Below, piece after piece: positions 11,109 through 28,755 of a stretch of 34,628 nucleotides of DNA. A program made the translations under genes and the position numbers. The DNA is taken from positions 372,001 through 406,628 of the forward strand of contig VRMN01000013.1 in NCBI GenBank assembly GCA_008690995.1, written 5' to 3'. Below the pieces are notes generated by a model that searched no databases, was not told where the DNA came from, and saw only the letters and a program-made list of their open reading frames with translations. Source of the stretch: Porphyridium purpureum (taxonomy: Eukaryota). Every line of letters starts with the position of its first letter. Position 1 is the first letter of the stretch.

Positions 11109-11876
11109 TACATAGATGGAGATACATTACGGAGCTCGGGTGCAAAGGGTAGCATTGACGCCTGCGCCGTGACTAGAAGCGCTTTGAAAGGACTGCGGCC
11201 GCGCTTAAAAGCCTTGACTGGGGGACTCGACGAGCATTGGGCCCATTGCAAGCGGCTCATGATACGCTGCTACGTCCGCGGATGGGACGCTAAAGTGAGC
11301 GCTTAGCGCAGTGAGCAAAGCCAGTAGACGGTCAACGGTGCCCTAACTCTTTCGCCGCGAGCTCTGTCGATCATGCGCTCAGCTCACTCCAGCGCTCCGG
11401 AATGGGAAGACGGTTTTAAGGCTGGGAGTTCCCAGGCCACCGTACTTCCCCTAACAGACGTCGGAGACCTTGTGGATGTTGTGGTCAGCGAACGCAGTGA
11501 GCCATGCGAACCAGGCGAACTTACGCATGTCGCATTTTTGCCCTCATCGGCGAAAACCAAGATGGTACCGTTCCGCCGATCATGGAGGCCTCGGTCTCGG
11601 CCGCGGGTGCCCGCTTGACTTCAGCCTCCCAGTCACAAGCCGACGCCGCGTTTTCCGGTGGCGCGGGAGTCCGCCAGCAACTCATCTCTGGTAGCTACGG
11701 CTCTGCAGTGCTGACACCAGTCGGCACGACTTTTCACCATGGCAGATGACTCGTGGACGGGAGGGGGCTTTCTACACCAACCTGCTCGTGCAACTCCGTT
11801 CCCGGTCGTTGCTGGTCTTGTTTTATGAATACAGCGCGCCGGGTGAACCAGCGGATTGCCGACTTTCGGGTGTCAC

Positions 11877-12370
11877 CATATGGTAGGTTGATGTTAAAAA
11901 ACATTAAAAAATTGTTTACTCAAGTATGCTACAAATGTGTCATTCAAGATGGATATGGAATGATAGCCCTTGCTCACGCGCTCACAACGATGTGCTTTGC
12001 ATGTGAAACGGTGATTGTATGGCTGAGATATCTGACTGTAAGTACCTTTGCAGTGGGTACGCCATTCGCAATGGTGGGTACATGATCCGCAGCCATAGGT
12101 CCGGCATCCGCATATGCTGAACCCCTCAAATCACGGGTGCCAGCAGAACTTCTACCCTAGAGGTACAGTATCTTCATACTGGGGACGCGGTATCCGCTTA
12201 TGATGGGCGTGCCAGCCGCAGCATGTGTACAGTCACGCGAAACATGGTGGAAACGTGATTTGCAGGGTGGGTACGTGATCCGCAAGGTGGGGACGCCAGC
12301 CGCAAGGTTGGTACGCGAGCCGTAAAGTGGGTACGTGATCCGCATGTTGGGTCGAGTTAAAAAGTGTACC
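11877..12370 (+). repeat. Module A copy 1 (494 bp) with internal 20-bp periodic GTGGGTACGTGATCCGCA motifs
   Basis: Aligns ungapped to 18698..19191 with about 19 mismatches by manual count (about 96%). Confidence 0.95.
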
Positions 12371-12613
12371 CCTAGTATCCATTTTACTACTGAAACCGAA
12401 GTGTGCTTAATCGCGTTGCGTAGGACCGAGCCAATCACAGCAAAAGTTTTCTTATTACATACACCTACATGATTGCATTCGTATTTTTACCAGAGCGGAG
12501 TAGTTTTCGCGCCACAACAAACAGAAGTTTTGTCGGGAGTGGGATGTGGGTATCCGGCCGTACGAAGTGCGCGGATGGCGGAAGCGAGCGTGGGGCCATT
12601 TTGATCAGGTCGG

Positions 12614-15600
12614 ATGGTATTTGCTTGTTCCAAGGGATGCGCGGCCGTTTTTGTTCGTGCCAGCGATTGCCGCCTCCACGAGCAGAAGTGTGTCCAACTT
12701 GACGAGTTAGTGTGGGGCTTAGTGTGCCCTCAATGCTCTCTCGCAAAACGATTTCCGAAAAACAGCGAGCCCGACAATGGACAAAGCAGAAAGGCTAAGA
12801 AGGCTCTCAAACGACACATAACACGGGTACACAAAGTCAAGGCGGACGGTTTGGAAGAGGCGTTTTTGAAAACATTTCAAGCTTATTGTACCCAGTACGG
12901 TGTCGAAAGGACCGCAGCGACCGCGCAGACTCGGCTGGTCTATGCGGTATTACACACGGCGAATAGAGAAACGCTTACGCATTCTTCGCTGCAGTCCGTG
13001 ACGCAAGAAATGGAAGACGCAAACCGAAGTGCTGGTGAGAGCGAGGTGGGCATGCGGGTGCTGTGTGGAACTGCGACAGGAGAGGCCATCGTCAAGCTAC
13101 GATGGTTTGAATCCGAGGCGGACATGCAGGATGCGTTTTCAAGGCAGGTTGGCGATGTGACAGACTGTGCGCGTGCGGCCGTGAAGTCGTGGTTGAACAT
13201 TGCCCGGTATTCAATCAATCAAGTGTTGAAAACACGTGCCGACGTGCTGAGACTACCGATACAGGGGAAAAGTACGATTGAATATACTGATGATATCTTC
13301 AAGTATCGTTTACTACCCGCGCTGGAGAAGAGCACAATTTCAAACGCGCTACAGACTTTCACTCAGGTCGTTGAGTTTTACGCGCTGCACGCGCTCAACA
13401 AGTCATTTGAAACCTTTGCGGAGGAGTACAGAGCAAATAATCCGACCGGAGACGAAAGCGACGCGCACGCGGTGCAAGCGCTTATCGTGCGGAACGGCTT
13501 GGAGGATTGTCCGGATGGCCGGACAAAACGCTTTCGTGCGATTGAGTTTCTCCGGTCGCATGCTTTGCATAAAGACTCGTGTGGCCGCCTTGGTCTCAAC
13601 TCGCTTTACAAGCTGGCGAAGCTGTCAAGCTATCAGTTGTGGATGTTGCGAGCCACAGCAGTGACAGAGTTGTACAAGAAGAGTCAAGCATTCCAGCTTG
13701 TCGCGGATCGCGGTTTTGATCTACTCGCTCTGAACGGGTCTCGGCTAAGTGGCCCTCTGTACATGACGCAGAGCATTCTGTGCGCGTCAAAGCCGTGCGG
13801 TGACGATCACGCCGAGTGGCTACTGATTGTGCGGACAGATACAAGTTTGGATACCGGGAATGACAGTGGAAGGTATTTCTTACAGCACCGTGCAAGCGGA
13901 GTACCGGTTCTCCCGTCCGTATTCGGTGTTCTTTACTACAGGTGCGTGCATAGAGCGCGGGACATTCTGGCCAAATTGTTTCCTGAGATGGACGGCGCTC
14001 TGGGTATTCATCTTGACGGCGGTCAAGTGGAAAATGTTATTCAAGGATACTTGTATTGCAAGGCACGGTCGCGCGGGATTAAACGTGTGACGGCATCAGA
14101 GGTCGCGCAAAAAGTTTGCGGTGCCTCGCGCGAGATTAGAAATGAGCTCAGTATATGCTCGCTTCTCGCACTACAAGCAGCGTGCATGCCTCTGCGGTCA
14201 TCATCTTCTCAGCAGGGAATTGTTCTTTCGAGCAGACATCAAGGGCATTCGCTCAAAAACTTGGGTGAAAACGTCGTCAGTGTTGTGGAAGTGGTGGTGA
14301 AAAACAGGCACAAAGCATTTGGAGTACCGCTTGTGGAACGGTTGCCGACGACGGCGGTATCTGATTTGTTCGTGATCTTGCATTGGACGGCGGATTTCTT
14401 CCTGCGCCACTGTGAAAAGGAGCATTTGGAATTCATCACCCCACTGAATTTTGCGTCAGCTACGCAAGTGAGCAAAGATGTAGATGTGTCTGAGCAAGCC
14501 TCGGACATGATGGGGCGCAAAGCTCAGGAAAAAACGCTCTTTGCACTTACCGGGGTGCCAATGACGGTTGGAGAATTTCGCAAGCTAGCATCGCACGTCC
14601 TGAAGCGCGAACCAGCGGCATTCGCAGACGTCCTTGGGCTTGACACCATGGCGCTTCACAGCGAAGCTCAGAAGGCGCTCGCTCTGAAGTTAGGACACAC
14701 CGTTTCTACAGACGAAGTATGGTACAATTTGGCTCTGAATGTTGACGAGTGCCTCTGGTTCGAAAGAGACACGCGCAATGCGTGGCTGACTTTAGTTGGT
14801 ATCGAAGACGAGCGTCTCCCTTTGGAGCTTCAGAACATGTGTTTCGCAGAGGTGGTTCGAGCAGTTCCAGATCTTGGTACCCCACACAAGGCTCTGCAAA
14901 GTGTGTTCGGTATTGATGCAGCATTTCAGACAGAGGGTCAAGAGCAGCTGCTTCGTTCTGTCTGGGAAGGACATGATACAGCAGCCCAGCTGCGCTGCGG
15001 TGCCGGCAAGAGTGCCTCTTTTCTGTGTGCGGGCCGTCTAGCTGAACGCGTGGGCCGCATTGTTCTTGTATTGACACCCATGCGTGCTGCAAGTGACGCA
15101 GCTATCGCGCAGGCAAGATCTTGTGGTATTGAATGCTTCGATATCGAAGATCTGCGTGCTGGCAGCGCCGCGCATCGGGGTGGTATTGTGGTCTTGTCTT
15201 TCGATCAAGTTCAGACGGGTAGAAATGTACTGAGTGTGCTGGAAAAGATTGTGGCAAGAGTCATTCTTGCAGTAGTTGATGAGGCTCACATTGTTTGCGA
15301 GCATACGAGCTTTCGCGCGTCGATGCAGGCAGGACTGCTTGGTATGCGCCTTGCTGGAATTCAGCGCGTATACTTGAGTGCCACGTTGACGATGGACGTA
15401 GCTGACTATGTTGCGAAAGTTCTGTGGTCTCCAGAACCGCAATTTGTAACAGACTCTGAGGTTCTGCCTCCGATCTCCAAGTTGTCTGTGTCCCCACTGA
15501 ACGATGAGTCAAGGCTTGCCCTGCACGTGCGCGTGGAAAAGGCTTCAGTGGAGGGAACAAGAGTTCTCATTGTTGTGCCAACCAAAAAACTGGTCGAAGA

Positions 15601-16819
15601 TGAGTATTTGCGGCTTGTGGATAATTTCCCCCAGCTGGGCGACAGAATTGGTATGATCACAGCAGATACTGAAAGCGTCGCGCGTGAGAGAGCCAAATTA
15701 TGCACAGTCATCGTCGGAACGTCCACCGTCGGATTAGCCCTAAACCTCGAAAATACTTGCGTAGTCGCAGTGCTTTATGCTACATTCTCGATTGCGCAGT
15801 TGGTCCAAGCGTGGGGCCGTACCGGCCGGCGGACAAGTCTCTCGCATACGCCAGAGTGCTTTTTCTGGTTTGACCCGAACGTAGCCAGCGCACTGCAGAG
15901 GAGCACTATTGCGCAAGATGTGCATCGACCGGCGTGCTTGACACACCCCATGTACTCGATGCAAGCTGTGGAAAAGTTTTACGACGAATGCCGAAGCAGG
16001 CCGAACGCTGTAATTCGTGAGCAGCTAGTGAAATTGTGCATCGAGCGTGCGGACAGGTATTCAAGTCTTGTGTCAAGTGAAAGCAGCCTGCCGAATGTAT
16101 CCAACTCTGAGAATGTGCAGATGACTCCGGTTCGCAAAGTGCACACGGCTACGCGCGACGAGCAATTAACGGCGAGCATCTCGAACTCAGAGCGTCCTTT
16201 TATGACGCTTCTGCAAGCAGACCTTAGCAGTGTACACGGGCTGAACGGGTCACGGGAGGACGCAACGGAAGGTGTGCGTTCGTTGAAAAGGGCACGAGTA
16301 CACGCACCGGAAGGTGTGCGTTCTGTATCATTAGCCGTGGTTTGTGCGACGAGTAAGGGATGGCAGCGGATATGGTCCACGGCTGTGGAGCGCTGTCCAT
16401 TCTGTGGTTTAGCAGCGTGCTCCGGTAGTTGCTATCGGCCTGTGACTTGCATGCAGTGTGGCAAGATTGGGAACATGCACAAGCACACTGCTCATGCGTA
16501 TATCAGATTGCATATACCTCCCAGAGCCCCTTCGAGTGGACTCTTTTGTGTGGCGTGCCTAGCTCCCAATCATTGGACTGCCGGTGTCTTCATCGACAAG
16601 GAGTTGCACGCGTCTCTGACGCGAGCGCAATCAAGCACTGGGATTCAGCGTCCAGGCCTTCTCAAAGCACGAATAGAGCATCTGTATTTGGCTCATCGCC
16701 ATCGGCAGTATCCTCATCTTGCCCTGGATGCTTATTTTAAGTGGCTTGTAGAGGTTGACACTGCAGGGATAACAAACGCAATGAAGGCGTTAGCGCAGAT
16801 GGACTCTGTCTTGTCGTAA
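12614..16819 (+). CDS. Zn-finger / tyrosine-recombinase-like / RecQ-like SF2 (DEAH) helicase / Cys-rich Zn-finger fusion protein (telomere-linked-helicase-like architecture)
   Basis: Helicase motifs CGAGKS, LTPMRA, VVDEAH, LSATL, VGTSTVG and QAWGRTGR. Upstream MPLR(528)...EFRK(R656)...LGH(695)TVSTDEVWY(704). N-terminal CPQC...HITRVH. C-terminal CPFC...CMQC...CVAC. Confidence 0.88.
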   Translation: MVFACSKGCAAVFVRASDCRLHEQKCVQLDELVWGLVCPQCSLAKRFPKNSEPDNGQSRKAKKALKRHITRVHKVKADGLEEAFLKTFQAYCTQYGVERTAATAQTRLVYAVLHTANRETLTHSSLQSVTQEMEDANRSAGESEVGMRVLCGTATGEAIVKLRWFESEADMQDAFSRQVGDVTDCARAAVKSWLNIARYSINQVLKTRADVLRLPIQGKSTIEYTDDIFKYRLLPALEKSTISNALQTFTQVVEFYALHALNKSFETFAEEYRANNPTGDESDAHAVQALIVRNGLEDCPDGRTKRFRAIEFLRSHALHKDSCGRLGLNSLYKLAKLSSYQLWMLRATAVTELYKKSQAFQLVADRGFDLLALNGSRLSGPLYMTQSILCASKPCGDDHAEWLLIVRTDTSLDTGNDSGRYFLQHRASGVPVLPSVFGVLYYRCVHRARDILAKLFPEMDGALGIHLDGGQVENVIQGYLYCKARSRGIKRVTASEVAQKVCGASREIRNELSICSLLALQAACMPLRSSSSQQGIVLSSRHQGHSLKNLGENVVSVVEVVVKNRHKAFGVPLVERLPTTAVSDLFVILHWTADFFLRHCEKEHLEFITPLNFASATQVSKDVDVSEQASDMMGRKAQEKTLFALTGVPMTVGEFRKLASHVLKREPAAFADVLGLDTMALHSEAQKALALKLGHTVSTDEVWYNLALNVDECLWFERDTRNAWLTLVGIEDERLPLELQNMCFAEVVRAVPDLGTPHKALQSVFGIDAAFQTEGQEQLLRSVWEGHDTAAQLRCGAGKSASFLCAGRLAERVGRIVLVLTPMRAASDAAIAQARSCGIECFDIEDLRAGSAAHRGGIVVLSFDQVQTGRNVLSVLEKIVARVILAVVDEAHIVCEHTSFRASMQAGLLGMRLAGIQRVYLSATLTMDVADYVAKVLWSPEPQFVTDSEVLPPISKLSVSPLNDESRLALHVRVEKASVEGTRVLIVVPTKKLVEDEYLRLVDNFPQLGDRIGMITADTESVARERAKLCTVIVGTSTVGLALNLENTCVVAVLYATFSIAQLVQAWGRTGRRTSLSHTPECFFWFDPNVASALQRSTIAQDVHRPACLTHPMYSMQAVEKFYDECRSRPNAVIREQLVKLCIERADRYSSLVSSESSLPNVSNSENVQMTPVRKVHTATRDEQLTASISNSERPFMTLLQADLSSVHGLNGSREDATEGVRSLKRARVHAPEGVRSVSLAVVCATSKGWQRIWSTAVERCPFCGLAACSGSCYRPVTCMQCGKIGNMHKHTAHAYIRLHIPPRAPSSGLFCVACLAPNHWTAGVFIDKELHASLTRAQSSTGIQRPGLLKARIEHLYLAHRHRQYPHLALDAYFKWLVEVDTAGITNAMKALAQMDSVLS

Positions 16820-17567
16820 GCACGGACCGCTGGGAATGATGCTCATCAGTGAAAGACACGACTCTACGGCGCTTCACCGTACACTGAAGTTGCTGCGCTT
16901 CACTTTGGGTTGCTTGCAGTGGGATACTGGTCAGCATCGCTGCATTGTTACACGTGCAATGAACGCCATCAAAACCATTTTGACATTGTGCAAGAGTGCT
17001 AGATTTCAGTGCGCGACCAGTGCGTGGGCGACCATTTGGAGCTTGCTAGCTTGGACGATTCCGTTCATGAAATGGCTGAAACGTGCGAGGCTTGTGTATG
17101 AAGAGACCTTCTGCTCGACCCTTTAGTCTGTATGTGTGGGCGACATTACAGCACTTGGAGCAAGTGCGGTGGCCCGAAGATAAGCCTTGACTGGTGCGCG
17201 AGAACTTGTTTATTGCTTGCTCTCACGAAGACATCTTTCTGCGTACGACTTGGAGTCACGCTCCGGCAACTGTCGCATGTGAGTACGATATTCGCAGCAG
17301 TGTGCGATTGCGTTCTGACACGACCCGCCGTGCAGAACATGCCAAGCTCATCACTTTCGGCATGGAGCTGTCAGAAAGCCGGTCAACCAGGTACGAGAAG
17401 CGCAATTTGATGTTCCCGCTGCTTGAACACTCTTCGTCTGCTCTGTAGGTCCGTCACCATCATCAGACCCACTGTCAAGTCATGGCAATACGCAAACCGT
17501 TCTCCAGTCTCTCAGAACACCCATCTCCAGCGGTCATGCATGCCCGAGCAGGCGGTGCTCCGAGCCG

Positions 17568-17773
17568 GCAGTGCCTCTGCTCTGGCCGCTATGCAGCGTC
17601 GCAGTGCCTCTGCCCTGGTCGCTATGCAGCGTCGCACTGCCGGTGCCCTGACCGCGATGCAGCGTCGCACTGCCGGTGCCCTGACCGCGATGCAGCGTTG
17701 CACTGCCGGTGCCCTGACCGCTACGCAGCGTCGCACTGCCGGTGCCCTGACCGCTACGCAGCGTCGCACTGCC
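17568..17773. repeat. 33-bp minisatellite, 6 full copies + partial
   Basis: GCACTGCCGGTGCCCTGACCGCTATGCAGCGTC-like units at 17568, 17601, 17634, 17667, 17700, 17733 and 17766. Confidence 0.92.
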
Positions 17774-17878: not shown

Positions 17879-18140
17879 GGTGAAAAGTAAAGTAGAGTAG
17901 ATTGTCCGAAGTCCGAAGTTGTGCTGAGTTACTGTAAAATGATGCTGTTTTAATGTGAAAACATTTTACTGTCGAATTTTGTGTCCAAAGTTGACTTTTC
18001 ATGGGTAAATGGCAGTGTTTTAGGATGAGGAATTTAGCATAGAAAAACGAATCCTAGAGCATAGTAAAACAGTAGTATTTTGATAGTGTGTTTGAGCATA
18101 GAAAAAAGGCATTGAAATGTGATAAAGTGCGTGTTCAGTT
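17879..18140 (+). repeat. Module B leader copy 1 (AT-rich, 5'-shortened), followed by a GC-rich tract
   Basis: Shares GAGTAGATTGTCC..., GTTGACTTTTCAT.GGT.AATGGCA.TGTTTTAG and GCATAGTAAAACAGTA..ATTTTGATA...GCATTGAAATGTGATAAA with the copies at 19190, 20405 and 28436. Confidence 0.8.
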
Positions 18141-18425
18141 GGCGCTGAAACCAATTACCCGATTAGAGCGGATCAGCGCTAATGCGGGCGTAGAGCGAAG
18201 TGCTGGCGTGGGGCGAAGGCGCGCGGGCGCAGTGGGGCGGCGTGAGTGGGCGCGGCGTGCGCAGCGCGCACCCGAACGCGCAGTAATTAGGTACGATGGA
18301 GCGCGCGGTGGGCGCGGTGGAGCGCGACGTGCGCGGCCAGCGCTCGCGGGCACGGGTGGTGGGTGGGGATGGGCGCGGACGGGCGCAAGTGGTGGGACTC
18401 GATGGGATCCGGTAAAGCGTGCTTG

Positions 18426-18700
18426 AGCGCGGCGGCGTGAAGAAGAGGCCGCCGCTGCCGAGCACGCTCGACACGAGAACGCGTGAGCTTTGGCCGCACA
18501 ATACGCCGACGCTGCCGAGCACGCTCGACACGAGAACGCGCGAGCTTTGGCCACACTTTGCGCCGCTGCCGCCGAGCAAGCGCGCCGTACGGGTGAGTGT
18601 CGAGATCTTGCTGGATAACGCGCCGTTGCCGCGGAGCACACGCGCCATGAGCAGGTGCGAGATGTTGTCCAACAACGCGCCACTGCTACGGAGCAGGCAT
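18426..18700 (+). pseudogene. Fragment of AAEQARR-type coiled-coil repeats (cargo 1)
   Basis: Reads ARRREEEAAAAEHARHENA*...AAAAEQARRTGECRDLAG*; resembles 9080..9180. Confidence 0.6.
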
Positions 18701-19191
18701 ATAGTAGGTTGATGTTAAAAAACATTAAAAAATTGTTTACTCAAGTATGCTACAAATTTGTCATTCAAATTGGATATTGAATGATAGCCCTTGCTCACGC
18801 GCTCACAAAGATGTGCTTTGCATGTGAAACGGTGCTTGTATCGCTGAGATATATGACTGTAAGTACCTTTGCAGTGGGTACGCCATTCGCAATGGTGGGT
18901 ACATGATCCGCAGCCATGGGTCCGGCATCCGCATATGCTGAACCCCTCGAATCACGGGTGCCAGCAGAACTTCTACCCTAGAGGTACAGTATCTTCATAC
19001 TGGGGACGCGGTATCCGCTTATGATGGGCATGCCAGCCGCAGCATGTGTACAGTCACGCGAAACATGGTGGATACGTGATTTGCAGGGTGGGTACGTGAT
19101 CCGCAAGGTGGGGACGCGAGCCGCAAGGTGGGTACGCGAGCCGTAAAGTGGGTACGTGATCCGCACGTTGGGTCAAGTTAATAAGTGCACC
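18698..19191 (+). repeat. Module A copy 2 (494 bp)
   Basis: Direct repeat of 11877..12370, offset 6821 bp. Confidence 0.95.
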
Positions 19192-19565
19192 ATAATAAAA
19201 TGGTGTTGATTTGCTACAAGTGAGTACAACAACGATACTGTACAGTTGCACAGGGGAAAAGAAGAGTAGATTGTCCATAGTCCAACGTTGCGTTCTGCAT
19301 AGTACCACGGTATCGTTTTAATATGAAAATAATTTACCATAGCGGTTCGTGTCCATAGTTGCCTTTTTTATAGGTGAATGGCATTGTTTTAGGCTGAAAG
19401 ATTTAGCATAGAAAGACGACCCCCAAAATGGGTGGTAATGCATTACATAGGCATCCCGAATTCGCGGTGAATAAGCATAGTAAAACAGTATCATTTTGAT
19501 ATGATACCCGAGCATAGCAAATTACCATTGAAATGTCATAAAATGCGCATCAAGCTGGACTCAGG
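19190..19565 (+). repeat. Module B leader copy 2, followed by a GC-rich tract
   Basis: Starts CCATAATAAAATGGTGTTGATTTGCTA; collinear with 20405..20785. Confidence 0.88.
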
Positions 19566-19852
19566 ACAAAGTGCCTGTTGCGCGATCAGCGGGTGGTGCG
19601 GGCGGCGGGGTGAGAGACGTGGAGCGCGAACGGTTGGGCGCGGGCGCGGGCGCAGGCGCGGGGCGCAGTCAGGCAATGGAGCGCGGGCACTTAGCGGGCG
19701 GGCGTGGGCGCGGGCGCGGGCGAGCCTGGGGCGCGGGCGCGCGGGCAGGCGATATGGGCGCAGGTGGTCGGGCGGTGGGGCGCGTTGGGGCGTGGGCCGG
19801 CAAGGAGAAATGGGATTGTCTTGGGAAGTAGAGTGGGATCGCGAAGTGCGAA

Positions 19853-20129
19853 ATGGACCTCGCTGCAGCGCAGCAGGGTGAAGGAGAGGCCGCTTTCACG
19901 GAGCATGCGAGCGGCGAGAAGGAGAAGCAAGATTTGCGGCGTACTGCGCCGCCGCCGCCGAGCAAGCGTGCCGAAAGGAGGCGCAAAATTCGCCGGACAA
20001 TGTGCCGGTGCCGTGGAGCATGTGCGGCGCGAGGAGGTGCGAGGTGATGTTGCACAACGCGATGGCGCAGCCGCCGCCGAGCAAGCGCGCCACAAGGAGG
20101 CACGGGATTCGCCGCACAACGGGCCATAG
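19853..20129 (+). pseudogene. Fragment of AAEQARR-type coiled-coil repeats (cargo 2)
   Basis: Frameshifted AAAAEQAC...AVEHVRREEVRGDV...AAAAEQARHKEARD; similar to cargo 1 and 9080..9180. Confidence 0.55.
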
Positions 20130-20404: not shown

Positions 20405-20785
20405 GCATAGTAAAATGATGCTGATTTGCTATGAGTCAGTACAGCAACGATACTGTACAGTTACAGAGGTGAAAAGAAGAGTAGATTGACCATAATCCGA
20501 CGTTGCGTTTTGCACAATAGAGTGGTATCGTTTTAATATGAAAATATTTTACTATAGACGCTTGTGTCGATAGTTGACTTTTCATAGGTGAATGGCACTG
20601 TTTTAGCATAGATGCTGCAGCATGGAAAAACGACCCCAAAAAAATGACAGGTAATGCATTACAAAGGCATCCCGCGTTGGTTGTGAATGAGTATAGTAAA
20701 ACAGTATCATTTTGATAGTGTACCAGAGTATAGCAAATTGGCGTCGAAATGTGATAAAATGCGCATCAAGCTGGACTGAGGACGC
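20405..20785 (+). repeat. Module B leader copy 3, followed by a GC-rich tract
   Basis: Starts GCATAGTAAAATGATGCTGATTTGCTA; collinear with copy 2. Confidence 0.88.
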
Positions 20786-20940
20786 AGTGCCCGTTGAGGG
20801 ATCGACCGGCGGTGGGGGGCGGTGGGGCGAAGGAGGAGCGCGGGCGGTAGTGGGGCGGGGTGGGCGCAGGCGCGGGCAGGCGCGGGCGGGCGCTGGGGTG
20901 CGGCGGTACGCGAGTGGTGTCGGGCGGTGGCGTCGCGCGC

Positions 20941-21709
20941 GTCGGCCAGTGACGACTGGGCAAGATTTTGGCTGGCGGCTCGCACGGCACGAGCCAGCAC
21001 TTTGAGCAATGCGCGAGATTGGGGCGCGCAGCAGCTGAGAAATGACACACGGAAGCCATGATTCAGCTTGTCCGCGATAACCACCATTAGCGTTGGCGCT
21101 GAGCGCCAAGGCGCAGACGGCGCTGGACGCCACGGAGCAGACGGCGCTGGACGCCACGGAGCAGACGGCGCTGGGAACCATGGAGCAGACGGCGCTGGGC
21201 GCCACGGAGCAGACGGCGCTGGGCGCCACGGAGCAGACGGCGCTGGGCGCCACGGAGCAGACGGCGCTGGGCGCCACGGAGCAGACGGCGCTGGGCGCCA
21301 CGGAGCAGACGGCGCTGAGCGGCAAGCGGTTTGTCGATGAGAATTAGGTGGAGCACGAGTGTGGGGCTCAGGCATTTGCGGGTTACGCCCGTGAGGCAGC
21401 CATCGAAGAGCAGGCTCGTCTCGTCGCGAAGACCACGCAAACGGTCGACGCCTGTTTGCAGCGCGAATTACGCTATTTTTGTCGAGAGGATGTGGGCGGG
21501 CTGCCGCACCCCATGTGCAAAGAAGTCGGGTGGTTGCGCAAGGCCGCAGAGGACGGCAACGCGTGGGCACCGTTTTATCTGAGCGATTGCTACGTCAGCG
21601 GGCTGGGCGATCTGCCGGAGGTCGAGTTCGCGGCGACCGAGAGGTTGCGCAAGGTCGCGGAATAGGGAGGCGCAAAGGTGCAGTGCAGTTTGGGCGCTTT
21701 GCAACTTGA
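20941..21709 (+). pseudogene. Sel1-like repeat gene fragment (cargo 3), paralogous to the kinase tail
   Basis: 20941..21076 aligns at nucleotide level with 8689..8824. Later it reads WLRKAAEDGNAWAPFYLSDCYVSGLG...LRKVAE*G. Confidence 0.75.
21111..21317. repeat. 24-bp minisatellite (EQTALGAT), about 8.6 copies
   Basis: GAGCAGACGGCGCTGGGCGCCACG units; a single-copy counterpart (ALETEEQTAL) lies near 8929..8958. Confidence 0.92.
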
Positions 21710-21947
21710 GCGCTTCTCATTAAGGTGGGCACGGCAGTCCGCGCGAGAGCGAGCTCGTAACAGGCGAGTGGTGGCGCAAGGACGCGGAGCAAGAAACAGC
21801 TACAGAGCTATAAAATTTACACGCTTGTAAACGTAGTCTTGAAGACAGTCTGCCCAAATACAGGCGCGACAGCTGCGAAAGGGGTGAGAGCAGGTGCGCA
21901 TGAACACTCGTGAGCACAACTGAGCGCAGGTGAGCATGAGCATGAGT

Positions 21948-22230
21948 GAGCACGAGTGAGCACGGATGAAAGCACAGAACACTACTGAGCACGAGTGAGC
22001 ACGGATGAAAGCACAGAACACTACTGAGCACCAGTGAGCACGGGTGAGAGCACAGAACACTACTGAGAATGATAGAACACTACTGAAGACTACAGAACAC
22101 TACTGAAGACCACAGAACACTACTGAAGACTACAGAACACTACTGAAGACCACAGAACACTACTGAAGACCACAGAACACTACTGAAGACCACAGAACAC
22201 TACTGAAGACCACAGAACACTACTGAAGAC
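21948..22230. repeat. Compound minisatellite: 39-bp unit x3, then 20-bp ACTACTGAAGACCACAGAAC units
   Basis: 39-bp units at 21948, 21987 and 22026; the 20-bp array ends abruptly at CCATAG 22230. Confidence 0.92.
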
Positions 22231-22321
22231 CATAGACGTGGTGAATGACGAGTGTCTTATTTATTACATATCTCGGCTTCTATGCGTCTTGAAAACATGT
22301 TTCACTTATCGTTCGATGCAG
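22230..22321 (+). repeat. Module C copy 2 (92 bp)
   Basis: Identical to 20124..20215. Confidence 0.95.
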
Positions 22322-22427
22322 GGTTAGAGGCGTTTTTCAGGTAGGGTGGGCCCTGCGGTTCGGCCATACCATAGTACAGTTGCTTCGGGCTACAGTACAG
22401 TTGCGTTGGACTATAGTACATGGTTAT

Positions 22428-23236
22428 CTTTAAATTCTCGCACGCTTGATGATGACAAGCGCACGAACCCGGATGACACAACCCTTCTCAGATGACCGAA
22501 CCCCAGCAACACGACGCACACAGCACAGAGAACACAACCACACGACGCACACAACACAGACGACGAATACCCGGGGCGTGGAAAATCCAGCGTATAGGGC
22601 CTCTACTATTGCCTTTCGCGTCGGCACAGACAGCACCGGTCTCGACAGGGGCAGGGTGTCGTAACGGACAAAGCCGCCGTCTGCCTTCAGTGCTCCAAGA
22701 GCACCGAAACCCCCCAGACACGATGTGCTGCTGGCTCTGCTACACAGGCTCAGCAAAAGGCCCCACGCCTTCCGACGGCCACGCCCAGGCACCCGACACC
22801 AAAGAACAACTCTTCCTTTATTCTCTGTGTCGTACTCCCTTGCCTCTACTTCTTCCGCTCTAAAGAAAATCCGGGGAACCGCACAGGCCCGCGCCCATTA
22901 TATACCCCGCCGTCCTTGCTGTCCTTGACGCGGAAGGGAGAAATTATTTCTCCCAAAAGGCTGGGCTTTCCTCCGTTCGTTCCACAGAACGAAGCCACAG
23001 CCAGCCACGTCAGCAAGCGGCTCAATGGGTGCTGGCCGGCCGCCAAGCGGCTCCTGCTTCCCTCGGACACGCGACTGCGGCTCCTCGGGGCGAAAGACAA
23101 CAATACACAAAACCAGAGGTACAGGGTAAAAAACCACGCGGGCGAAAAAGCCCCTGTACCTCAAACAATTCCGAGACGCCGTACCTCCGGGTGTACACCC
23201 AGGGCGTCTCTCGGACCGGAACACTTTTAATCCATG
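22428..23236 (-). repeat. 3' LTR (809 bp)
   Basis: Matches 27622..28430 with about 9 substitutions and two 1-bp indels by manual count. Confidence 0.95.
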
Positions 23237-26200
23237 CTCCTCCTTCCGATCTGAGGGACGCGTAACATAGTCCAACACCTGATATGACCTTCCGGAAACA
23301 AAGGTTTTGTCATCAAGTCGGACACGTTTTCCCCCGTCCTCACATATTCCAATCTCACCAGCTTTTGCTTCTCGCAAACTTGGTGTATCCACGCCAAGTC
23401 CGTGGCTCTGGTCACTGCCATGTGATGCAACTTTGGCGAGTAGCCCATCTCGACCGCACGGAGAACAACTTGACTATCACAAAGCAGGGTCAACGCATAA
23501 TCCCCCTCTTGCACGCTTCGAAGAAACGACAATGCCGGAAACAAAGATAACTGCACCGCTTCTTCCAGAGCGGCCATCTCAGACTCAGAGGTCGAAGAGC
23601 TCACAAAGCGTTGCCTTCTGGAGCTCCAATCGACCAGATACTTGTTTCCACCCGCGACCAAGTACGTCACTCTCCCAGACGTTGACTTGCGCGTTTCCGG
23701 GCATCCAGCAAAGTCGGCATCAGCATAGCCCAAGACGCTTACGTCGCCGATCTTCAATGACGTCATCTGCAAATACTCAAGTGGCTCACGAGGCACCTTC
23801 AAGTATTGCATGACGCGAACCAGGAGTCTCTCAGCTGCGACGTTCCAGCTATCCACATACCGAGCCACCACTCCAACTGCATAGGAGATATCCGGTCTGA
23901 CCGTCCTGGCCAACCACAGCAGCCGCCCGACATGCTCGCGTATTTTCAGATGTCCATGTTCGACTTGAACATCCAATACAGCGTCAGCATTCATCTTCTC
24001 ACCTGGTGATTTCACCGCTCGCAGCACCTGCCCAAGTTCTTCTTCGAATTCCTTCACCACCAAAGCTTGGTAGTGATCATGACCCAACGAAAACCGTGTC
24101 GCCGACTCCGAGATCGTGAGTCCTAGGAACCTTAACGGGGCTCCTTCCGAGAGGACTTCCGGCTCCTTCTCAATGAGGAACTCTGACCTCAACTCTCGAA
24201 ATATCTCACCCCGATCCTTCTCGACACACGCGAGCAGACCATCGTCGACATACAAGGCTAGGAGTGCAACAGATGCACTTCCCGCCATCTTTTTCACGTA
24301 TACGTTCTTCTCGCCGTGAATCAAATCCCACCCGAACTTTTGAAGTCTTCTGCGGGCATCCTGGGAAAAGTCAGACCCGCTTCTTGGCAAGCCATAAAGC
24401 GCCCTCCTCAAGCGAACGACAAGTCCATCACCTCCTCCTGGAACGTGTCGGGGCAACATGGCAAACGTCGGTGGTCCTGACAAGTCAGCGTGTAAGTACG
24501 CCGACGTCACATCGAACGATACGATCTTCAATCCTAGGATAGCGGCCAAAGCTATCAGCATTCTGATCGCAGACAGGCCCGCGGGCACCTCATAGTCAAA
24601 CACATCCTGAGTGACCTTCCCTGAGGCATCCCAAATCCTATTTCCACCAGCAACAAGCCGACACTTGACCTTGCGAAACTCCTCCGGAAGCTCAGCGAAC
24701 TTCAATCCGAATATAAAGTGTGTCCGCACAAATCGTGCGCCTGGGACCTTGAGAGCTTCTTCCCTTGAAATAGGTTGCTCATCCCATACCTTGAATCGGA
24801 TCATCAAGTCCACTTCTTTTTGCATGGCTTCTCTTCCAGCCGAAGAAGCCAGAGCTTGGCTCGTCTGCAACAAAGTTGTCAAGTTCAATTGCGGTGTTTC
24901 TGGAGCAACTCCTGCGCGTTGCCTCCAATTTTCCTCCGAGAGGCCCATATTATGAGCCCGGGCTCGCACATCCTTTCCGTTTCTTGAATCGCGGAACACT
25001 GCCTTATATTCTTGCAGAGTTCTTTCCCACTTCCCCCAGCCAAAGAGCCGTAAGCCATCCATGATGGCCTGATCCTCTTCCCGGCTCCAAGATACCCTGG
25101 GTTTTCGTTTCCCCCTTCTTCCAATAGGTAGGGGAACATCCTCCTTCAAGTTCCCGGATACACGCGCCTCGGCCGTATTCGTAGGCAACACCATAGTCTC
25201 TTGACTATCCGGTTCTTCCTGCCTAGAGTGAAAGTCGATTTCACCCTCACGTGCCGAGACCTCCTCGTCATCCCTTGTTTCCAAAGTCCGCATTGGAAAC
25301 ACTTCAGGGAACGCCTTGAAGTCCTGAGTGCGAGTCAGCTTCGGTGCCGCACTCGTCCACTCCTCCTGAGGAAGGACCCAGATTGCCAGCGGATGCTCCG
25401 CAACTCCAACAAGGACTCCAATCTTTCCTCTGGGTGCATACTTGTTCTCCGGTTGATCATTCTTGAAAACCACCTTGCACCCAAATGGTACTGCTACCTT
25501 CCCCCGCTTCCATCTCTCACCGTACCTCATTTCATACGGAGACTTCCCAGACTTCTTGTCTGGGTGCAGCCGATTGAACATGAATACGAAATGCTGAGCG
25601 GCATGCAAAAACCACCGCTTTCCCAGCCCAGACTGCAGGAGATTTGCTCGTACCCCCTGATTCAAAGTATGATGGAAACGTTCCTGTTCAGCGTGGCTAT
25701 TCGGTCTATGTGGGACCCCAATCTCATGCTTCACGAGATTCTCCCGTACCAAATTGCTCACATTTCCCCTGAACTCGTTTCCATCATCTGTCCTCAGTAC
25801 CTTTGGCCATCCTCGCCCGGCTTGCACGCTTGTCCAAGCTTCAGCAACCGCCGTATGCGTTTTGGCTCTCAATCCTGCCAGTGTGGCCCACCTCGTCGCT
25901 CTATCGATGTGCGTCAGCATGTGCTTCGCTCCATCGATGGCTTCCACGTTACGTCCGGGCTCCACCAGGTCGATCCCAACTTCGTCATTGAACGACAAAG
26001 TGGACAAGTCCTTCTCCAGCCTTCTTGCTGGTCGGCTCTTGATCTTGGCCACAGCACACGTCTCACAATCATCCCGCATCGGCATGTGAGTCAACGCATG
26101 TTCCATCCCGGCCATCTTTCCTTCGACCTCTTCACTGGCACTCTCCTCTTCTCCATCGTACGCTTGATTTCCGCTTGACTCGGAAAGAGCGTCCACGACA

Positions 26201-26652
26201 TTTACCATCGCACAATCTTCCACATTTTCAAGTTCCAAGTCCATCGAACCCCTCTGCCAATCAATCCTCGGGTTCACGCGACTCAGCCAGTCCCACCCGA
26301 GAATTGCATCCATTTGCAGAGGTCCGACATAAAACTTGACCGGCCCTTTCCAGAACCCAAGATCAACATGCTGCAACACCGGGCCATGCACTAAGACACT
26401 TTGCCCACCCGCAAGCTTGACCATTCCGTTCTCGCGCCCTTCAAATCTGCCGACAAAGCGAGATCCAAGAAAATTGTGCGATGCTCCGCTGTCCACCAGA
26501 AATTGGACAGACTCGCCATCTAAAGTTCCACGCTTGTAGAGCAACCTCGACGCCGCATCAGCGCGCCAGACCTCACCTACAAAGCCCATCCCGGGAGGTT
26601 CCGTTCCCCTCGAGTGCACCTCCCAGCTTCTCCCTCGAGGTTTTAGTTTTCC
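23227..26652 (-). CDS. pol: Pol polyprotein: aspartic protease, integrase, Myb-like domain, Copia-type reverse transcriptase, RNase H (entered by -1 frameshift)
   Basis: Protease FLVDSGASHNF. Integrase HALTH...CETC, VGIDL, LRTDDGNEF, AEQER and PFGCKV. RT KCRLVAGG, FDVTSAYL, RALYGLPRSG and LYVDD. Then RPDISYAV and RNase H YADADFAG..RKSTSG, SSSTSESE. The frame is open upstream at least to 26727; the stop codon lies inside the 3' LTR. Confidence 0.93.
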   Translation of the reverse strand, partial: GKLKPRGRSWEVHSRGTEPPGMGFVGEVWRADAASRLLYKRGTLDGESVQFLVDSGASHNFLGSRFVGRFEGRENGMVKLAGGQSVLVHGPVLQHVDLGFWKGPVKFYVGPLQMDAILGWDWLSRVNPRIDWQRGSMDLELENVEDCAMVNVVDALSESSGNQAYDGEEESASEEVEGKMAGMEHALTHMPMRDDCETCAVAKIKSRPARRLEKDLSTLSFNDEVGIDLVEPGRNVEAIDGAKHMLTHIDRATRWATLAGLRAKTHTAVAEAWTSVQAGRGWPKVLRTDDGNEFRGNVSNLVRENLVKHEIGVPHRPNSHAEQERFHHTLNQGVRANLLQSGLGKRWFLHAAQHFVFMFNRLHPDKKSGKSPYEMRYGERWKRGKVAVPFGCKVVFKNDQPENKYAPRGKIGVLVGVAEHPLAIWVLPQEEWTSAAPKLTRTQDFKAFPEVFPMRTLETRDDEEVSAREGEIDFHSRQEEPDSQETMVLPTNTAEARVSGNLKEDVPLPIGRRGKRKPRVSWSREEDQAIMDGLRLFGWGKWERTLQEYKAVFRDSRNGKDVRARAHNMGLSEENWRQRAGVAPETPQLNLTTLLQTSQALASSAGREAMQKEVDLMIRFKVWDEQPISREEALKVPGARFVRTHFIFGLKFAELPEEFRKVKCRLVAGGNRIWDASGKVTQDVFDYEVPAGLSAIRMLIALAAILGLKIVSFDVTSAYLHADLSGPPTFAMLPRHVPGGGDGLVVRLRRALYGLPRSGSDFSQDARRRLQKFGWDLIHGEKNVYVKKMAGSASVALLALYVDDGLLACVEKDRGEIFRELRSEFLIEKEPEVLSEGAPLRFLGLTISESATRFSLGHDHYQALVVKEFEEELGQVLRAVKSPGEKMNADAVLDVQVEHGHLKIREHVGRLLWLARTVRPDISYAVGVVARYVDSWNVAAERLLVRVMQYLKVPREPLEYLQMTSLKIGDVSVLGYADADFAGCPETRKSTSGRVTYLVAGGNKYLVDWSSRRQRFVSSSTSESEMAALEEAVQLSLFPALSFLRSVQEGDYALTLLCDSQVVLRAVEMGYSPKLHHMAVTRATDLAWIHQVCEKQKLVRLEYVRTGENVSDLMTKPLFPEGHIRCWTMLRVPQIGRRSMD
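23237..23247 (-). other. Polypurine tract GGAAGGAGGAG
   Basis: 11 purines abutting the 3' LTR on the element sense strand. Confidence 0.85.
26591..26652 (-). promoter_or_regulatory. Predicted -1 ribosomal frameshift signal (G_GAA_AAC + H-type pseudoknot)
   Basis: Heptamer 26652..26646 directly before the gag stop, 5-nt spacer, stem 1 CCTCGAG/CTCGAGG, stem 2 CTGGGAGGT/ACCTCCCGG; pol is in the -1 frame. Confidence 0.78.
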
Positions 26653-27599
26653 GGGCCTCCCGCCAAGTGCCCATTCCGCTTTGGGCAATTGGGTTTGATG
26701 TGGCCGCGCTGCCCGCAATGGTAGCATCTGACTTTGCCCATGTCCGCACGCTTGCGCTTCTCCGGCTGGCGTTTCTCCACGACGCCCAAATCCATTGGCG
26801 CCGTCCCGGCATACGACGAGCTGTTCCGGTAGTTTGGACTCGAGGCGCCATGAAAAGCCTCCCTCATGTCTCCTCCAAACCTACCAACCTGCTCCGCAGC
26901 CAACGCCGCCCTCAGCGACTCTTCCAGCGTCTTCGTGTCCTGACGCGCCACCTCAAGGCGAAGCTTCTCCTTCAGGCCGAGAGTGAAGATGGTGTTGAGC
27001 TCGGCATCCGTCACACTATCCACGGATAGAGCCACCATCCTCAGGCGCTGCTCAAACTCAGCAACAGTCATCTTGCCCTGCTTCAGCTGATACAAGTTCG
27101 TTCGAGCAGTCAGGTATGCCTGCGGCGGCTCAAATGCCGTCCGCACGAAGTTCGCGAACGCATTCCAACCGGACTCGGCCAATGCCATCCTCTGTTCCTC
27201 AGGGCGAGCTGCCCACAGGAGCGCGGCATCCTTCTCAAAGAAGCGCGACGCTACGATCACCTTCTGCGACTCCAGCGCTCCAGCTGGCATGCACATGTCC
27301 AAGTCTTGCTTCATCCTCGACAACCACTCGTTCACAACGAGTTTGTCGCGCTGTCCGTCGTATTTTCTCAAGCTGCGTCCAATCAGCGATGCAACGGTCC
27401 TTTCCGTTTCGCCGGGACCAGCTGACACAGATGCCTGATGCATCACATTCTGCAGCATCTCCTGCAAGAGGCGGTTTCCCTCCTGCAGCTGCACAATCAT
27501 CATTTCTTGTCCTCCGATACGAGCATGAAGCTGGTTGAAAGCTTCAATCCACGACGCGCCGCCCTGCAGGCCCTGCACGTCCATTCCCTCAGAATCCAT
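26643..27599 (-). CDS. gag: Gag (Ty3/Gypsy-type capsid + CCHC zinc knuckle)
   Basis: YDGQRD...EWL, LYQLKQGKMTVAEFEQR, FTLGLK and PMDLG followed by CYHCGQRGHIKPNC. Confidence 0.92.
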   Translation of the reverse strand: MDSEGMDVQGLQGGASWIEAFNQLHARIGGQEMMIVQLQEGNRLLQEMLQNVMHQASVSAGPGETERTVASLIGRSLRKYDGQRDKLVVNEWLSRMKQDLDMCMPAGALESQKVIVASRFFEKDAALLWAARPEEQRMALAESGWNAFANFVRTAFEPPQAYLTARTNLYQLKQGKMTVAEFEQRLRMVALSVDSVTDAELNTIFTLGLKEKLRLEVARQDTKTLEESLRAALAAEQVGRFGGDMREAFHGASSPNYRNSSSYAGTAPMDLGVVEKRQPEKRKRADMGKVRCYHCGQRGHIKPNCPKRNGHLAGGPEN

Positions 27600-27609
27600 C
27601 TTCGCCGAT

Positions 27610-27621
27610 GCGATGATACCA
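27610..27621 (-). other. Primer-binding site TGGTATCA(TCGC), initiator-Met-tRNA type
   Basis: Immediately follows the 5' LTR; the first 8 nt match the common TGGTATCAGAGC PBS. Confidence 0.75.
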
Positions 27622-28430
27622 CTTTAAATTCTCGCACGCTTGGTGATGACAAGCGCACGAACCCGGATGACACAACCCTTCTCAGATGACCGAACCCCAG
27701 CAACACGACGCACACAGCACAGAGAACACAACCACACGACGCACACAACACAGACGACGAATACCCGGGGCGTGGAAAATCCAGCGTATAGGGCCTCTAC
27801 TATTGCCTTTCGCGTCGGCACAGACAGCACCGGTCTCGACAGGGGCAGGGTGTCGTAACGGACAAAGCCGCCGTCTGCCTTCAGTGCTCTAAGAGCACCG
27901 AAACCCCCAGACACGATGTGCTGCTGGCTCTGCTACACAGGCTCAGCAAAAGGCCCCACGCCTTCCGACGACCACGCCCAGGCACCCGACACCAAAGAAC
28001 AACTCTTCCTTTTATTCTCTGTGTCCTACTCCCTTGCCTCTTCTTCTTCCGCTCTAAAGAAAATCCGGGGAACCGCACAGGCCCGCGCCCATTATATACC
28101 CCGCCGTCCTTGCTGTCCTTGACGCGGAAGGGAGAAATTATTTCTCCCAAAAGGCTGGGCTTTCCCCCGTTCGTTCCACGGAACGAAGCCACAGCCAGCC
28201 ACGTCAGCAAGCGGCTCAATGGGTGCCGGCCGGCCGCCAAGCGGCTCCTGCTTCCCTCGGACACGCGACTCCGGCTCCTCGGGGCGAAAGACAACAATAC
28301 ACAAAACCAGAGGTACAGGGTAAAAAACCACGCGGGCGAAAAAGCCCCTGTACCTCAAACAATTCCGAGACGCCGTACCTCCGGGTGTACACCCAGGGCG
28401 TCTCTCGGACCGGAACACTTTTAATCCATG
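27622..28430 (-). repeat. 5' LTR (809 bp)
   Basis: Direct repeat of 22428..23236; contains TATATAA on the sense strand near 28092..28098. Confidence 0.95.
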
Positions 28431-28435
28431 GTTAT

Positions 28436-28755
28436 ACATGTGTAAAAACAAGTAGACCAGATCGTCCAAAGTCCAAAATTACGATGTGTATAGTAAAAAG
28501 ATATCGTTGTCATATGAAAATACTTGGAGGTTGGTGTCCAAAGTTGGCTTTTTCATAGGTAAATGCCAGTGTGTTAGTATGAGAAATCGAGCATAGAAGA
28601 ACGAACCCAAAATAATTGATGGTCATGCATTACATGGGCATCCCATGTTGGTTGTGAAGAAGCATAGTAAAACAGTAGCATTTTGTTAGTATGCATGAGC
28701 ATAGAAAATTGGCATTGAAATATGATGAAGTGCGGGCTCAAGTCGACCTGAGGAC
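28436..28755 (+). repeat. Module B leader copy 4 (its 5' part, 22369..22427, lies on the other side of the LTR element)
   Basis: Shares GTGTCCAAAGTTGGCTTTTTCATAGGTAAATG, ATGCATTAC..GGCATCCC and GCATAGTAAAACAGTAGCATTTTG with the other B copies; followed by a GC-rich tract. Confidence 0.85.

What the first reader, a model, noticed from the sequence alone, without database searches (positions are those of the whole stretch)
11876..28755. Head-to-tail array of modules joined at CCATA(G)-like cores: candidate eukaryotic integron-like or Crypton cassette system
Seen: the order is A1 | helicase+B1+cargo | A2 | B2+cargo | C1 | B3+cargo | C2 | B4+cargo. The junctions read CCATAT 11876, CCCTAG 12370, GCATAT 18697, CCATAA 19190, CCATAG 20124, GCATAG 20405, CCATAG 22230 and CCATACCATAG 22364..22374. 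Cargo is cut at these words and does not resume after the next module. Known (from memory, verify): CryptonS YR transposons of oomycetes and diatoms have TATGG termini, the reverse complement of CCATA. Inference: site-specific recombination by the neighbouring YR-helicases stacked these units. Caveats: CATAG also recurs inside module B, and three of the eight words carry a mismatch in CCATA.
Basis: partly seen in the sequence, partly recalled or inferred. Interest (0 to 1): 0.85.

Follow-up and report, generated by a model that had tools for sequence, protein, structure and literature searches.

The report
Recombinase-helicase element grafting DNA modules together
The window holds a stack of repeated DNA modules that start at a fixed CC|ATA-type end, one of them present at this spot in some samples and absent in another, next to an intact telomere-linked-helicase-type gene predicted to carry a tyrosine recombinase that likely grafts these ends onto loosely matching sites, which would make such chromosome-end genes self-spreading elements, not an integron.

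Summary
The junction words are real. Module A's left end is fixed: contigs from three runs show other A copies starting at the same CC|ATAT with different left flanks. Sample X4 has the leftmost site empty (CACC|GCGG) while X1 and X3 have it filled. But 0 of 5 inferred target sites carry a full CCATA; they share only [C/G]C before the cut. So CCATA is the module's own end, not a shared core, and the cargo is decayed gene fragments. The integron reading and CryptonS membership fail. The neighbouring 1401-aa gene is an intact telomere-linked-helicase (TLH)-like protein. It keeps R528/K563/R656/H695/Y704 (41-44 of 44 aligned sequences), and its model matches XerA/Cre weakly (Z 7.8). A is welded to this gene in several copies. 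Best reading (0.5): one-ended recombinase grafting that carries distal DNA along, like the sharp C/CC boundary of Magnaporthe TLH ends. The scan had already noted TLH-as-recombinase in fungal windows; new here are element ends, an empty/filled site and a target rule. The three unit-to-unit junctions inside the stack were not seen bridged in short reads.

The parts
11878..12370 (+). Module A1: fixed left end (CC|ATAT), 20-bp internal repeats at 12253-12352; left arm of the H1 unit
   Evidence: other A copies start at the same point with other flanks; empty allele in X4 leaves at 11877
12614..16819 (+). H1: intact 1401-aa TLH-like protein (N-terminal C2H2-like motif, YR-like domain, RecQ-like SF2 helicase, C-terminal Cys motifs)
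   Evidence: identical protein on 4 contigs
14132..14806 (+). YR-like catalytic domain of H1 (about aa 507-731; R528, K563, R656, H695, Y704 with its codon at 14723)
   Evidence: model pLDDT 61
14930..15832 (+). RecQ-like helicase core of H1 (aa 773-1073)
   Evidence: Pfam DEAD E 7e-15, Helicase_C E 5.8e-07; family profile hits BLM/RecQ
17889..18140 (+). Module B1, eroded left end
18250..18698 (+). GC-rich tract and decayed coiled-coil gene fragment, cut at GC|ATAT
   Evidence: paralogous contigs run on past 18698
18699..19191 (+). Module A2 (GC|ATAT ... GCACC), 96% identical to A1
   Evidence: A2-B2-type junction bridged by an X6 contig with 13 differences
19192..20125 (+). Module B2 (CC|ATAA) with GC-rich tract and decayed coiled-coil cargo
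   Evidence: an X1 contig identical over 19893-20126 runs on without C1
20126..20406 (+). Module C1 (CC|ATAG), 22-bp internal repeats at 20297-20376
20407..21900 (+). Module B3 (GC|ATAG) with decayed SEL1-like cargo; in X3 an A copy sits in DNA like 21031-21057
21973..22231 (+). 20-bp satellite, cut at GACC|ATAG; also the left flank of an A copy in X4
22232..22370 (+). Module C2 (identical to C1 up to 22321) plus a ~45-bp piece from 22320 and the ATACC pentamer
22371..28925 (+). Module B4 (CC|ATAG), in two pieces 22371-22427 and 28431-28925
22428..28430 (-). LTR retrotransposon with copia-type gene order inserted in B4; LTRs 799 of 810 identical; GTTAT target duplication
31939..34628 (-). H2: second TLH-like YR-helicase gene, cut by the window end; family of 6 database proteins 96-100% identical

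Best explanation
The stack is likely the product of a telomere-linked-helicase (TLH)-type element whose predicted tyrosine recombinase joins a fixed module end (CC|ATA) to loosely matching [C/G]C|purine-pyrimidine sites, likely at one end only, so that each graft would bring along the DNA behind the module and cut off what lay beyond the target. Shown: the fixed left end of A, an empty and a filled state of the leftmost site, targets without CCATA, A welded to the intact H1 gene in several copies, and no return of the cut DNA inside the window. Inferred: that H1 (or H2) is the enzyme; that the join is a recombinase half-crossover or a junction then copied onward with help of the RecQ domain; that A, B and C are end modules of different ages whose short internal repeats are binding sites; and that the region is subtelomeric. 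Existing module ends are good targets themselves, which explains A2|B2 and C1|B3. The cargo is passenger DNA, not selected cassettes.
For: Fixed end: loose ends 'before' 11874 (X1), 11875 (X4, 2 contigs), 11876 (X4) and 11876 (X3), each with a different flank. Empty allele: a 4170-bp X4 contig follows the window to 11877 and continues GCGG..., while X1 and X3 contigs run into A. Targets: CC|GC (X4 allele), CC|AT (B3-type cargo), CC|AC (satellite), CC|A then not T (20126), GC|GC (paralogues at 18698). The X4 continuation and the cut cargo are absent from the window. A-H1 linkage is bridged in X1, X3 and X10; H1 is deeper than the left flank (253 vs 97.5 in X1; 1440-1536 vs 153 in X3; depth is only a hint); the identical protein is on 4 contigs. 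Recombinase: R/K/R/H/Y kept in 42, 43, 44, 41 and 43 of 44 sequences; best fold match XerA Z 7.8, 150 residues, rmsd 4.0; every row with more than 130 aligned residues is a YR or topoisomerase-IB fold. Parallels in print: Magnaporthe TLH regions have a sharp upstream boundary at the first or second C of a repeat unit, short helicase-associated repeats inside, and run on to the telomere (PMC1635262); CryptonF-1_cRei makes translocations between an element and a remote CAYCG target (PMC9977147).
Against: No recombination or movement was observed directly. The fold match is below Z 8 and Foldseek gave no E <= 0.001. A profile of the 40 non-window homologues scores H1 at only 7.3 bits (best of 300 shuffles 4.6) and the full-length H2 relative at 3.2, below that shuffle. 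No telomere repeat array is in the window, and H2 lies to the right in the opposite orientation. The cut DNA could resume beyond the window. A1 and A2 end at the same ACC, as a two-ended element would. Loose-end tables were cut (10 rows hidden, 123), so flanks that break the rule may be hidden. Four of the five targets are read from paralogues or repeat units, not from proven alleles. Junctions 18698, 20126 and 22232 were not seen bridged.
Confidence: 0.5

Rival explanations
1. A, B and C are ordinary two-ended Crypton-like non-autonomous elements that move as circles using the same recombinase and have nested into each other; the cut-off remainders lie beyond the window or were deleted later.
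For: A2 is flanked by GCATA and CCATA, and C1 by CCATA and GCATA. A1 and A2 share a right end at ACC that resembles the CACC/ACC left flanks of other A copies. Crypton insertion by short donor/target similarity is documented (PMC9977147).
Against: None of the four cut sequences (native flank, B1 cargo, B2 cargo, satellite) resumes in the window. No loose end with a native flank behind 12370 was among the 12 rows shown (10 hidden). The right neighbours of A seen here are always another module or the H1 block.
Confidence: 0.2
2. Ordinary subtelomeric or segmental patchwork: breaks repaired through 2-4 bases of microhomology, with the helicase genes as passengers.
For: Shared letters at the joins are only CC, CCA, CCAT or CACC, the size usual in microhomology repair (own knowledge). 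CCATA is not enriched in bulk. The region is repeat-rich, with a satellite, pseudogenes and a retrotransposon.
Against: Repair would not put at least six independent joins on the same base of module A (two in the window, four loose-end rows), nor give three unrelated families the same [C/G]C|ATA edge. The linked gene keeps a full catalytic set in an intact frame.
Confidence: 0.15
3. Part of the stack is an assembly artefact: separately located units were stitched together at repeats near a contig end.
For: An X1 contig identical to 19893-20126 runs on without C1; a single contig should not cross a real branch (own knowledge of graph assembly), so that junction seems absent from X1. No contig bridging 18698, 20126 or 22232 was shown. 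The window seems to be the last 34,628 bases of a 406,628-base contig (arithmetic).
Against: The joins fall on element ends defined by other copies, not inside a shared repeat. A-H1, A-B and C-B junctions are bridged by short-read contigs (X1, X3, X10; X6; X10). The leftmost join is entered by X1 (30 letters) and X3 (11 letters), both short of the tool's 31-letter rule.
Confidence: 0.1
4. A eukaryotic integron-like system: a recombinase loads gene cassettes in order at one site through a shared CCATA core.
For: Head-to-tail order in one orientation, a neighbouring recombinase-like gene, and presence/absence between samples.
Against: 0 of 5 targets hold CCATA; A also sits at unrelated sites elsewhere; the cargo has stop codons in its coding frame and includes a satellite; no hairpin at module ends (7 of 7 folds within 1 SD of shuffles); no joint that cleanly removes a module among those shown.
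Confidence: 0.05

Closest known systems
Telomere-linked RecQ helicase (TLH) regions of fungi and a choanoflagellate (Magnaporthe TLH1 region I; Fusarium oxysporum TLHcr)
   Same: Domain order C2H2 / conserved domain before the helicase / RecQ / C-terminal Cys motifs; multicopy; sharp upstream boundary at C/CC with short repeats inside; arrays (PMC1635262 sections 13 and 24; bioRxiv 10.1101/2024.02.27.582403 passages). One cluster-mate of an aligned homologue is named 'telomere-associated RecQ helicase'.
   Different: H1 is very distant (about 12-21% identity to these homologues). No telomere repeats flank the units here. Those papers assign the TLH domain no function ('recombinase' occurs 0 times in the Fusarium preprint). 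Several different end modules (A, B, C) are stacked here.
Crypton YR transposons (CryptonS; CryptonF-1_cRei of Chlamydomonas)
   Same: YR enzyme, no terminal inverted repeats on A, short terminal word (CCATA is the reverse complement of CryptonS TATGG), relaxed target match, rearrangements at remote targets.
   Different: CryptonS has 5-6 bp direct repeats with TATGG also in the target; here the target lacks it. The Crypton papers read name no helicase fusion ('helicase' 0 times in PMC3212892 and PMC13465315). The flank does not resume.
Helitron / IS91-type one-ended elements
   Same: Nuclease fused to a helicase, one well-defined end, capture of neighbouring gene fragments, tandem arrays (PMC6431247 passage; the one-ended behaviour is recalled).
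   Different: The nuclease is YR-like, not HUH; the helicase is SF2 RecQ-like; no terminal hairpin; ends are not TC...CTRR in an AT site (rule recalled).
Bacterial integrons (IntI, attI, attC)
   Same: Head-to-tail units beside a YR gene.
   Different: No single loading site, no folded attC-like sites, no intact cassette ORFs.

Membership tests
CryptonS | 5-6 bp terminal direct repeat, TATGG at both termini with one copy from the target | tested here: not met
   Empty allele reads CC|GC; 0 of 5 inferred targets hold CCATA; definition from PMC3212892 and PMC13565253
CryptonS | Encodes a YR with catalytic R-H-R-Y-type residues | tested here: met
   R528, K563, R656, H695, Y704 conserved; YR-type fold rows. 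Met as 'a YR-like domain', at moderate confidence
CryptonS | YR groups with the CryptonS clade and has its conserved C-terminal region | not tested
   No Crypton sequences were on hand. H1 instead has a RecQ-like helicase after the YR; nearest named Atlas clusters were Phage_integrase 0.83, Integrase_2 0.82, NDC10_II 0.81, all lead level
TLH family | RecQ-like helicase | tested here: met
TLH family | Conserved ~250-aa TLH domain just upstream of the helicase | tested here: inconclusive
   Five motif residues align with fungal-type homologues, but overall similarity is weak (7.3 bits vs 4.6 for the best of 300 shuffles); no named reference TLH was compared directly
TLH family | N- and C-terminal zinc-binding motifs | tested here: met
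   CPQC...H...H near the H1 N-terminus (read); C1261, C1264, C1273, C1312, C1340 nearly invariant; homologues carry OrsD/PF12013
TLH family | Copies lie next to telomere repeats | not testable with these tools
   No genome is held; one TTAGGG and no array in the window
Integron | One attI-like site where cassettes enter | tested here: not met
   A copies flank satellite, cargo and other DNA at different sites
Integron | Cassettes carry intact ORFs bounded by folded attC-type sites | tested here: not met
   Cargo frames hold stops; no end hairpins
Integron | Excision as circles and reordering | not testable with these tools
   Only assembled short-read contigs were laid; no clean module-skipping joint among those shown
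Helitron | HUH Rep domain and 3' terminal hairpin | tested here: not met
   No Rep family on H1 or H2 at E <= 0.1; 7 of 7 end folds no better than shuffles

The most novel reading that the evidence does not exclude
TLH genes are the engines of an unrecognised class of eukaryotic mobile DNA: a tyrosine recombinase-RecQ fusion grafts one fixed element end onto a 2-4 base target and carries everything distal with it, building and swapping chromosome-end mosaics. This window would be a living example, with an intact multicopy enzyme gene, non-autonomous end modules, an empty/filled site and a readable target rule.
Probability: 0.4. Interest if true: 0.85.

Novelty: new variant of a known kind. Interest (0 to 1): 0.66.

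Why it matters
The function of telomere-linked helicases is stated as unknown in the TLH papers read (PMC1635262; bioRxiv 10.1101/2024.02.27.582403). A recombinase domain alone suggests they could be mobile but gives no substrate. This locus supplies a candidate substrate: a fixed DNA end, several target sites, an empty allele and an intact gene. That makes a direct wild-type versus Y704F test possible. If right, the sharp boundaries and arrays of fungal TLH subtelomeres would be recombinase footprints, and subtelomere turnover in these organisms would be partly driven by a selfish element. It is not a eukaryotic integron.

Tried and rejected
No whole genome is held, so genome-wide breakpoint mapping was replaced by two read lays. 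Bulk CCATA enrichment: none. Word-based homologue search with H1 residues 280-1100 found only H1 itself; the glycosyltransferase search found only itself, so the host lineage was not determined. Metagenome scan with H1: 19 pattern matches, 0 confirmed relatives. First fold (aa 160-750, 22 sequences): pLDDT 44.5; its Foldseek search had no E <= 0.001 and is not used. Foldseek on the second model: no E <= 0.001; XerD and Cre were ranks 1-3 at E 1.4-1.8. Pfam finds no YR family on H1 or H2 at E <= 0.1. A Pfam scan of the 44-member alignment was not obtained. Helitron-type hairpins: none. Long terminal inverted repeats on A: none. Telomere arrays: none. Rfam 11000-34628: 0 matches. Resumption of cargo, satellite or the X4 flank: not found. 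The part of X4 without cover at 12399-12431 is not taken as absence. Literature: 'TLH domain' plus 'recombinase' 0 papers; searches listed no title or abstract start describing a YR-RecQ element. Repbase Reports and subscription papers are outside the library, and the supplement of PMC3212892 (list of Crypton termini) and Figure 3 of PMC1635262 (junction alignments) were not seen; both may bear on the comparison.


Full report
Setting. The window is eukaryotic DNA of about 55% G+C with long unbroken frames: a WD40 protein, a kinase, a broken SEL1/coiled-coil gene and a glycosyltransferase on the left, then the repeat stack. No genome is held and the host was not identified. The glycosyltransferase and the cut H2 protein are on record on a 406,628-base contig; 406,628 minus 34,628 is 372,000, so the window is probably that contig's end (inference).

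The observation. A1 and A2 are 474 of 493 identical, B1-B4 are 72-80% alike, and C1/C2 share 92 identical bases. Cut before ATA, the joins read CACC|ATAT (11878), AGGC|ATAT (18699), CACC|ATAA (19192), GGCC|ATAG (20126), AAGC|ATAG (20407), GACC|ATAG (22232), GGCC|ATAC (22366), TACC|ATAG (22371) and ACCC|CTAG (12372). CCATA is not enriched in bulk (15 against 15.6 expected). What is beyond chance is its place at the homology edge of three unrelated families (about 2e-7 with one base of slack; motif chosen after the fact). The cargo translates as stop-broken SEL1 and coiled-coil fragments like the broken gene at 8520-9260, plus a 20-bp satellite.

Other samples. Of 24 runs listed, five were laid: X1, X4, X6 and X10 on 11200-22420, and X4 and X3 on 11640-12600. 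All are assembled contigs, and the loose-end tables show 24 of 147 and 12 of 22 rows. X1 may be the window's own source. Four results follow. (a) A has a fixed left end: four rows (five contigs; X1, X3, X4) show A starting at 11874-11876, so through CC|ATAT, behind four different flanks. One flank is the same satellite that C2 cuts in the window; one matches B3 cargo at 21039-21055. (b) The leftmost site is polymorphic: a 4170-base X4 contig follows the window to 11877 and goes on GCGG..., while X1 and X3 contigs run 30 and 11 letters into A. (c) Targets do not carry the word. Five can be read: CC|GC (X4 allele), CC|AT (B3-type cargo), CC|AC (satellite unit), CC|A then not T (an X1 contig identical over 19893-20126 that runs on without C1), and GC|GC (paralogous contigs at 18698). 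That is 0 of 5 with CCATA and 5 of 5 with [C/G]C; only the first is a proven allele. Whether CC belongs to the module or is matched in the target cannot be told apart. (d) A and the helicase block travel together: single contigs bridge 12372 in X1, X3 and X10, at depths above the left flank (253 against 97.5 in X1; 1440 against 153 in X3; the tool warns that depth is no copy number), and the H1 protein is on record, identical, on 4 contigs. The X4 continuation, the cut cargo and the satellite do not resume in the window. Against the array as assembled: no contig bridging 18698, 20126 or 22232 was shown, and the X1 contig through 20126 suggests that this join is absent from X1. It is either newer than X1 or an assembly error.

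The enzyme. H1 (12614-16819, 1401 aa, intact) and H2 (cut by the window end; 27% identical) have a DEAD/Helicase_C core; a family profile hits BLM, RECQL5, WRN and RecQ. A search of 1.84 billion representatives gave H2's full-length relative at E 3e-61 and then RecQ-like hits. I took the long ones among them and, through P0027, 62 more proteins, mostly with OrsD (PF12013) plus helicase and with fungal names where named. A cluster-mate of one is named 'telomere-associated RecQ helicase'. In an alignment of 44 sequences (H1 aa 450-745, three H2-family proteins and 40 others, chosen from the larger set after a 79-sequence alignment failed) R528, K563, R656, H695 and Y704 are kept in 42, 43, 44, 41 and 43 of 44. 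This is the spacing of the tyrosine-recombinase catalytic set (own knowledge). The model of that stretch has pLDDT 61 and pTM 0.55. Its best match among 48,161 chains is archaeal XerA (Z 7.8, 150 residues, rmsd 4.0). All rows with more than 130 aligned residues are XerA, Cre, IntI, Flp, XerD, TelK, a staphylococcal integrase or topoisomerase IB. The support is moderate: Z is under 8, Foldseek has no E <= 0.001, and a profile of the 40 other proteins scores H1 at 7.3 bits against 4.6 for the best of 300 shuffles and H2 at 3.2. The Atlas gave unnamed eukaryotic clusters at 0.94 and integrase families at 0.81-0.83, lead level only. H2's cluster has 6 proteins at 96-100% identity on contigs of five lengths.

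How it most likely works. Shown: fixed end, relaxed targets, empty and filled states, A-H1 linkage, no return of cut DNA in the window. Inferred: H1 or H2 binds the short repeats inside the modules (20-bp in A, 22-bp in C1, the AGCATAG-type motif in B), cuts at the module end and joins it to a [C/G]C|purine-pyrimidine site. The other end is not resolved, so the target's far side is lost or moved and whatever lies behind the module comes along. A half-crossover or copying onward from the junction would both do this, and I cannot tell them apart. Repeating the step gives units of 6821, 1427 and 2106 bases, each cut by the next module's left end. Module ends are good targets themselves, which gives A2|B2 and C1|B3 and makes A2 look flanked by direct repeats. 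Confidence 0.5. Rivals: nested two-ended Crypton-like elements 0.2, repair patchwork 0.15, partial misassembly 0.1, integron 0.05.

Comparison with print. PMC3212892 (passages) and PMC13565253 (passages): CryptonS has 5-6 bp direct repeats, mostly TATGG, one copy from the target; 'helicase' occurs 0 times in either. The word matches; the target rule does not. PMC9977147 (passages): CryptonF-1_cRei ends in CACCG, targets CAYCG, and makes inversions and translocations with a bare target at one breakpoint. [quoted passage not shown] PMC13465315, PMC3627910 and PMC6431247, passages only, name no YR-RecQ element. Searches found no such description in the held library; Repbase Reports and subscription papers were not searchable. 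So it works like a Crypton in chemistry and like a TLH region in anatomy. It is not a CryptonS or an integron, and TLH membership is likely but telomere linkage is untested.

Novelty. The scan had already noted a recombinase fold in fungal TLH genes, mostly in broken copies. I had reached that reading, and those notes are not independent evidence. One further look-up found no note on TLH element ends or empty sites. What this window adds is the DNA side: an intact multicopy gene, its end modules, a polymorphic site and a target rule. Verdict: new variant of a known kind, interest 0.66.

Noticed in passing
window 22428-28430 (-): LTR retrotransposon with copia-type gene order, gag and pol in separate frames, a Myb-like domain inside pol before the RT, LTRs 98.6% identical that do not end TG...CA, 5-bp GTTAT duplication.
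   Followed up: partly
window 20412-20432 and 20693-20713: Module B holds an imperfect inverted repeat (21 nt, 86%) between its left end and an internal site; each arm looks like two short inverted halves around an 8-base spacer, as recombinase sites do (resemblance by eye).
   Followed up: partly
window 21973-22236: 20-bp satellite, extremely deep in X4 and X10 contigs; elsewhere it runs on into another fixed sequence in X1, X6 and X10. Hit by C2 here and by A in X4 at the same GACC.
   Followed up: partly
window 22320-22365: A ~45-bp piece starting AGGGTTAG (telomere-like) is joined to other left flanks at 22320/22321 in X4 and X10: a further module boundary without ATA.
   Followed up: no
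window 22230-22243 and 12291: An X10 contig shares the first 14 bases of C and then goes into another sequence; an X4 contig leaves A at 12291 into a similar sequence. Probably a fourth end-module family.
   Followed up: no
window 34623-34628: The window, probably the contig, ends exactly at CCATAG inside the H2 frame; chance, or a further junction where the assembly stopped.
   Followed up: no
window 31100-31470: Spaced GAGGGG(G)TAGTCACC-type repeats in AT-rich DNA downstream of H2, similar in style to the repeats in A and C1 and to helicase-associated repeats.
   Followed up: no
window 6779-9260: Kinase with a weak MLKL-N-like N-terminal domain (E 0.034) followed by a stop-broken SEL1/coiled-coil gene that resembles the cargo of B1-B3.
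   Followed up: partly
window 1852-3960: Young WD40 repeat protein: 6.6 copies of a 126-bp unit at 75% match.
   Followed up: no
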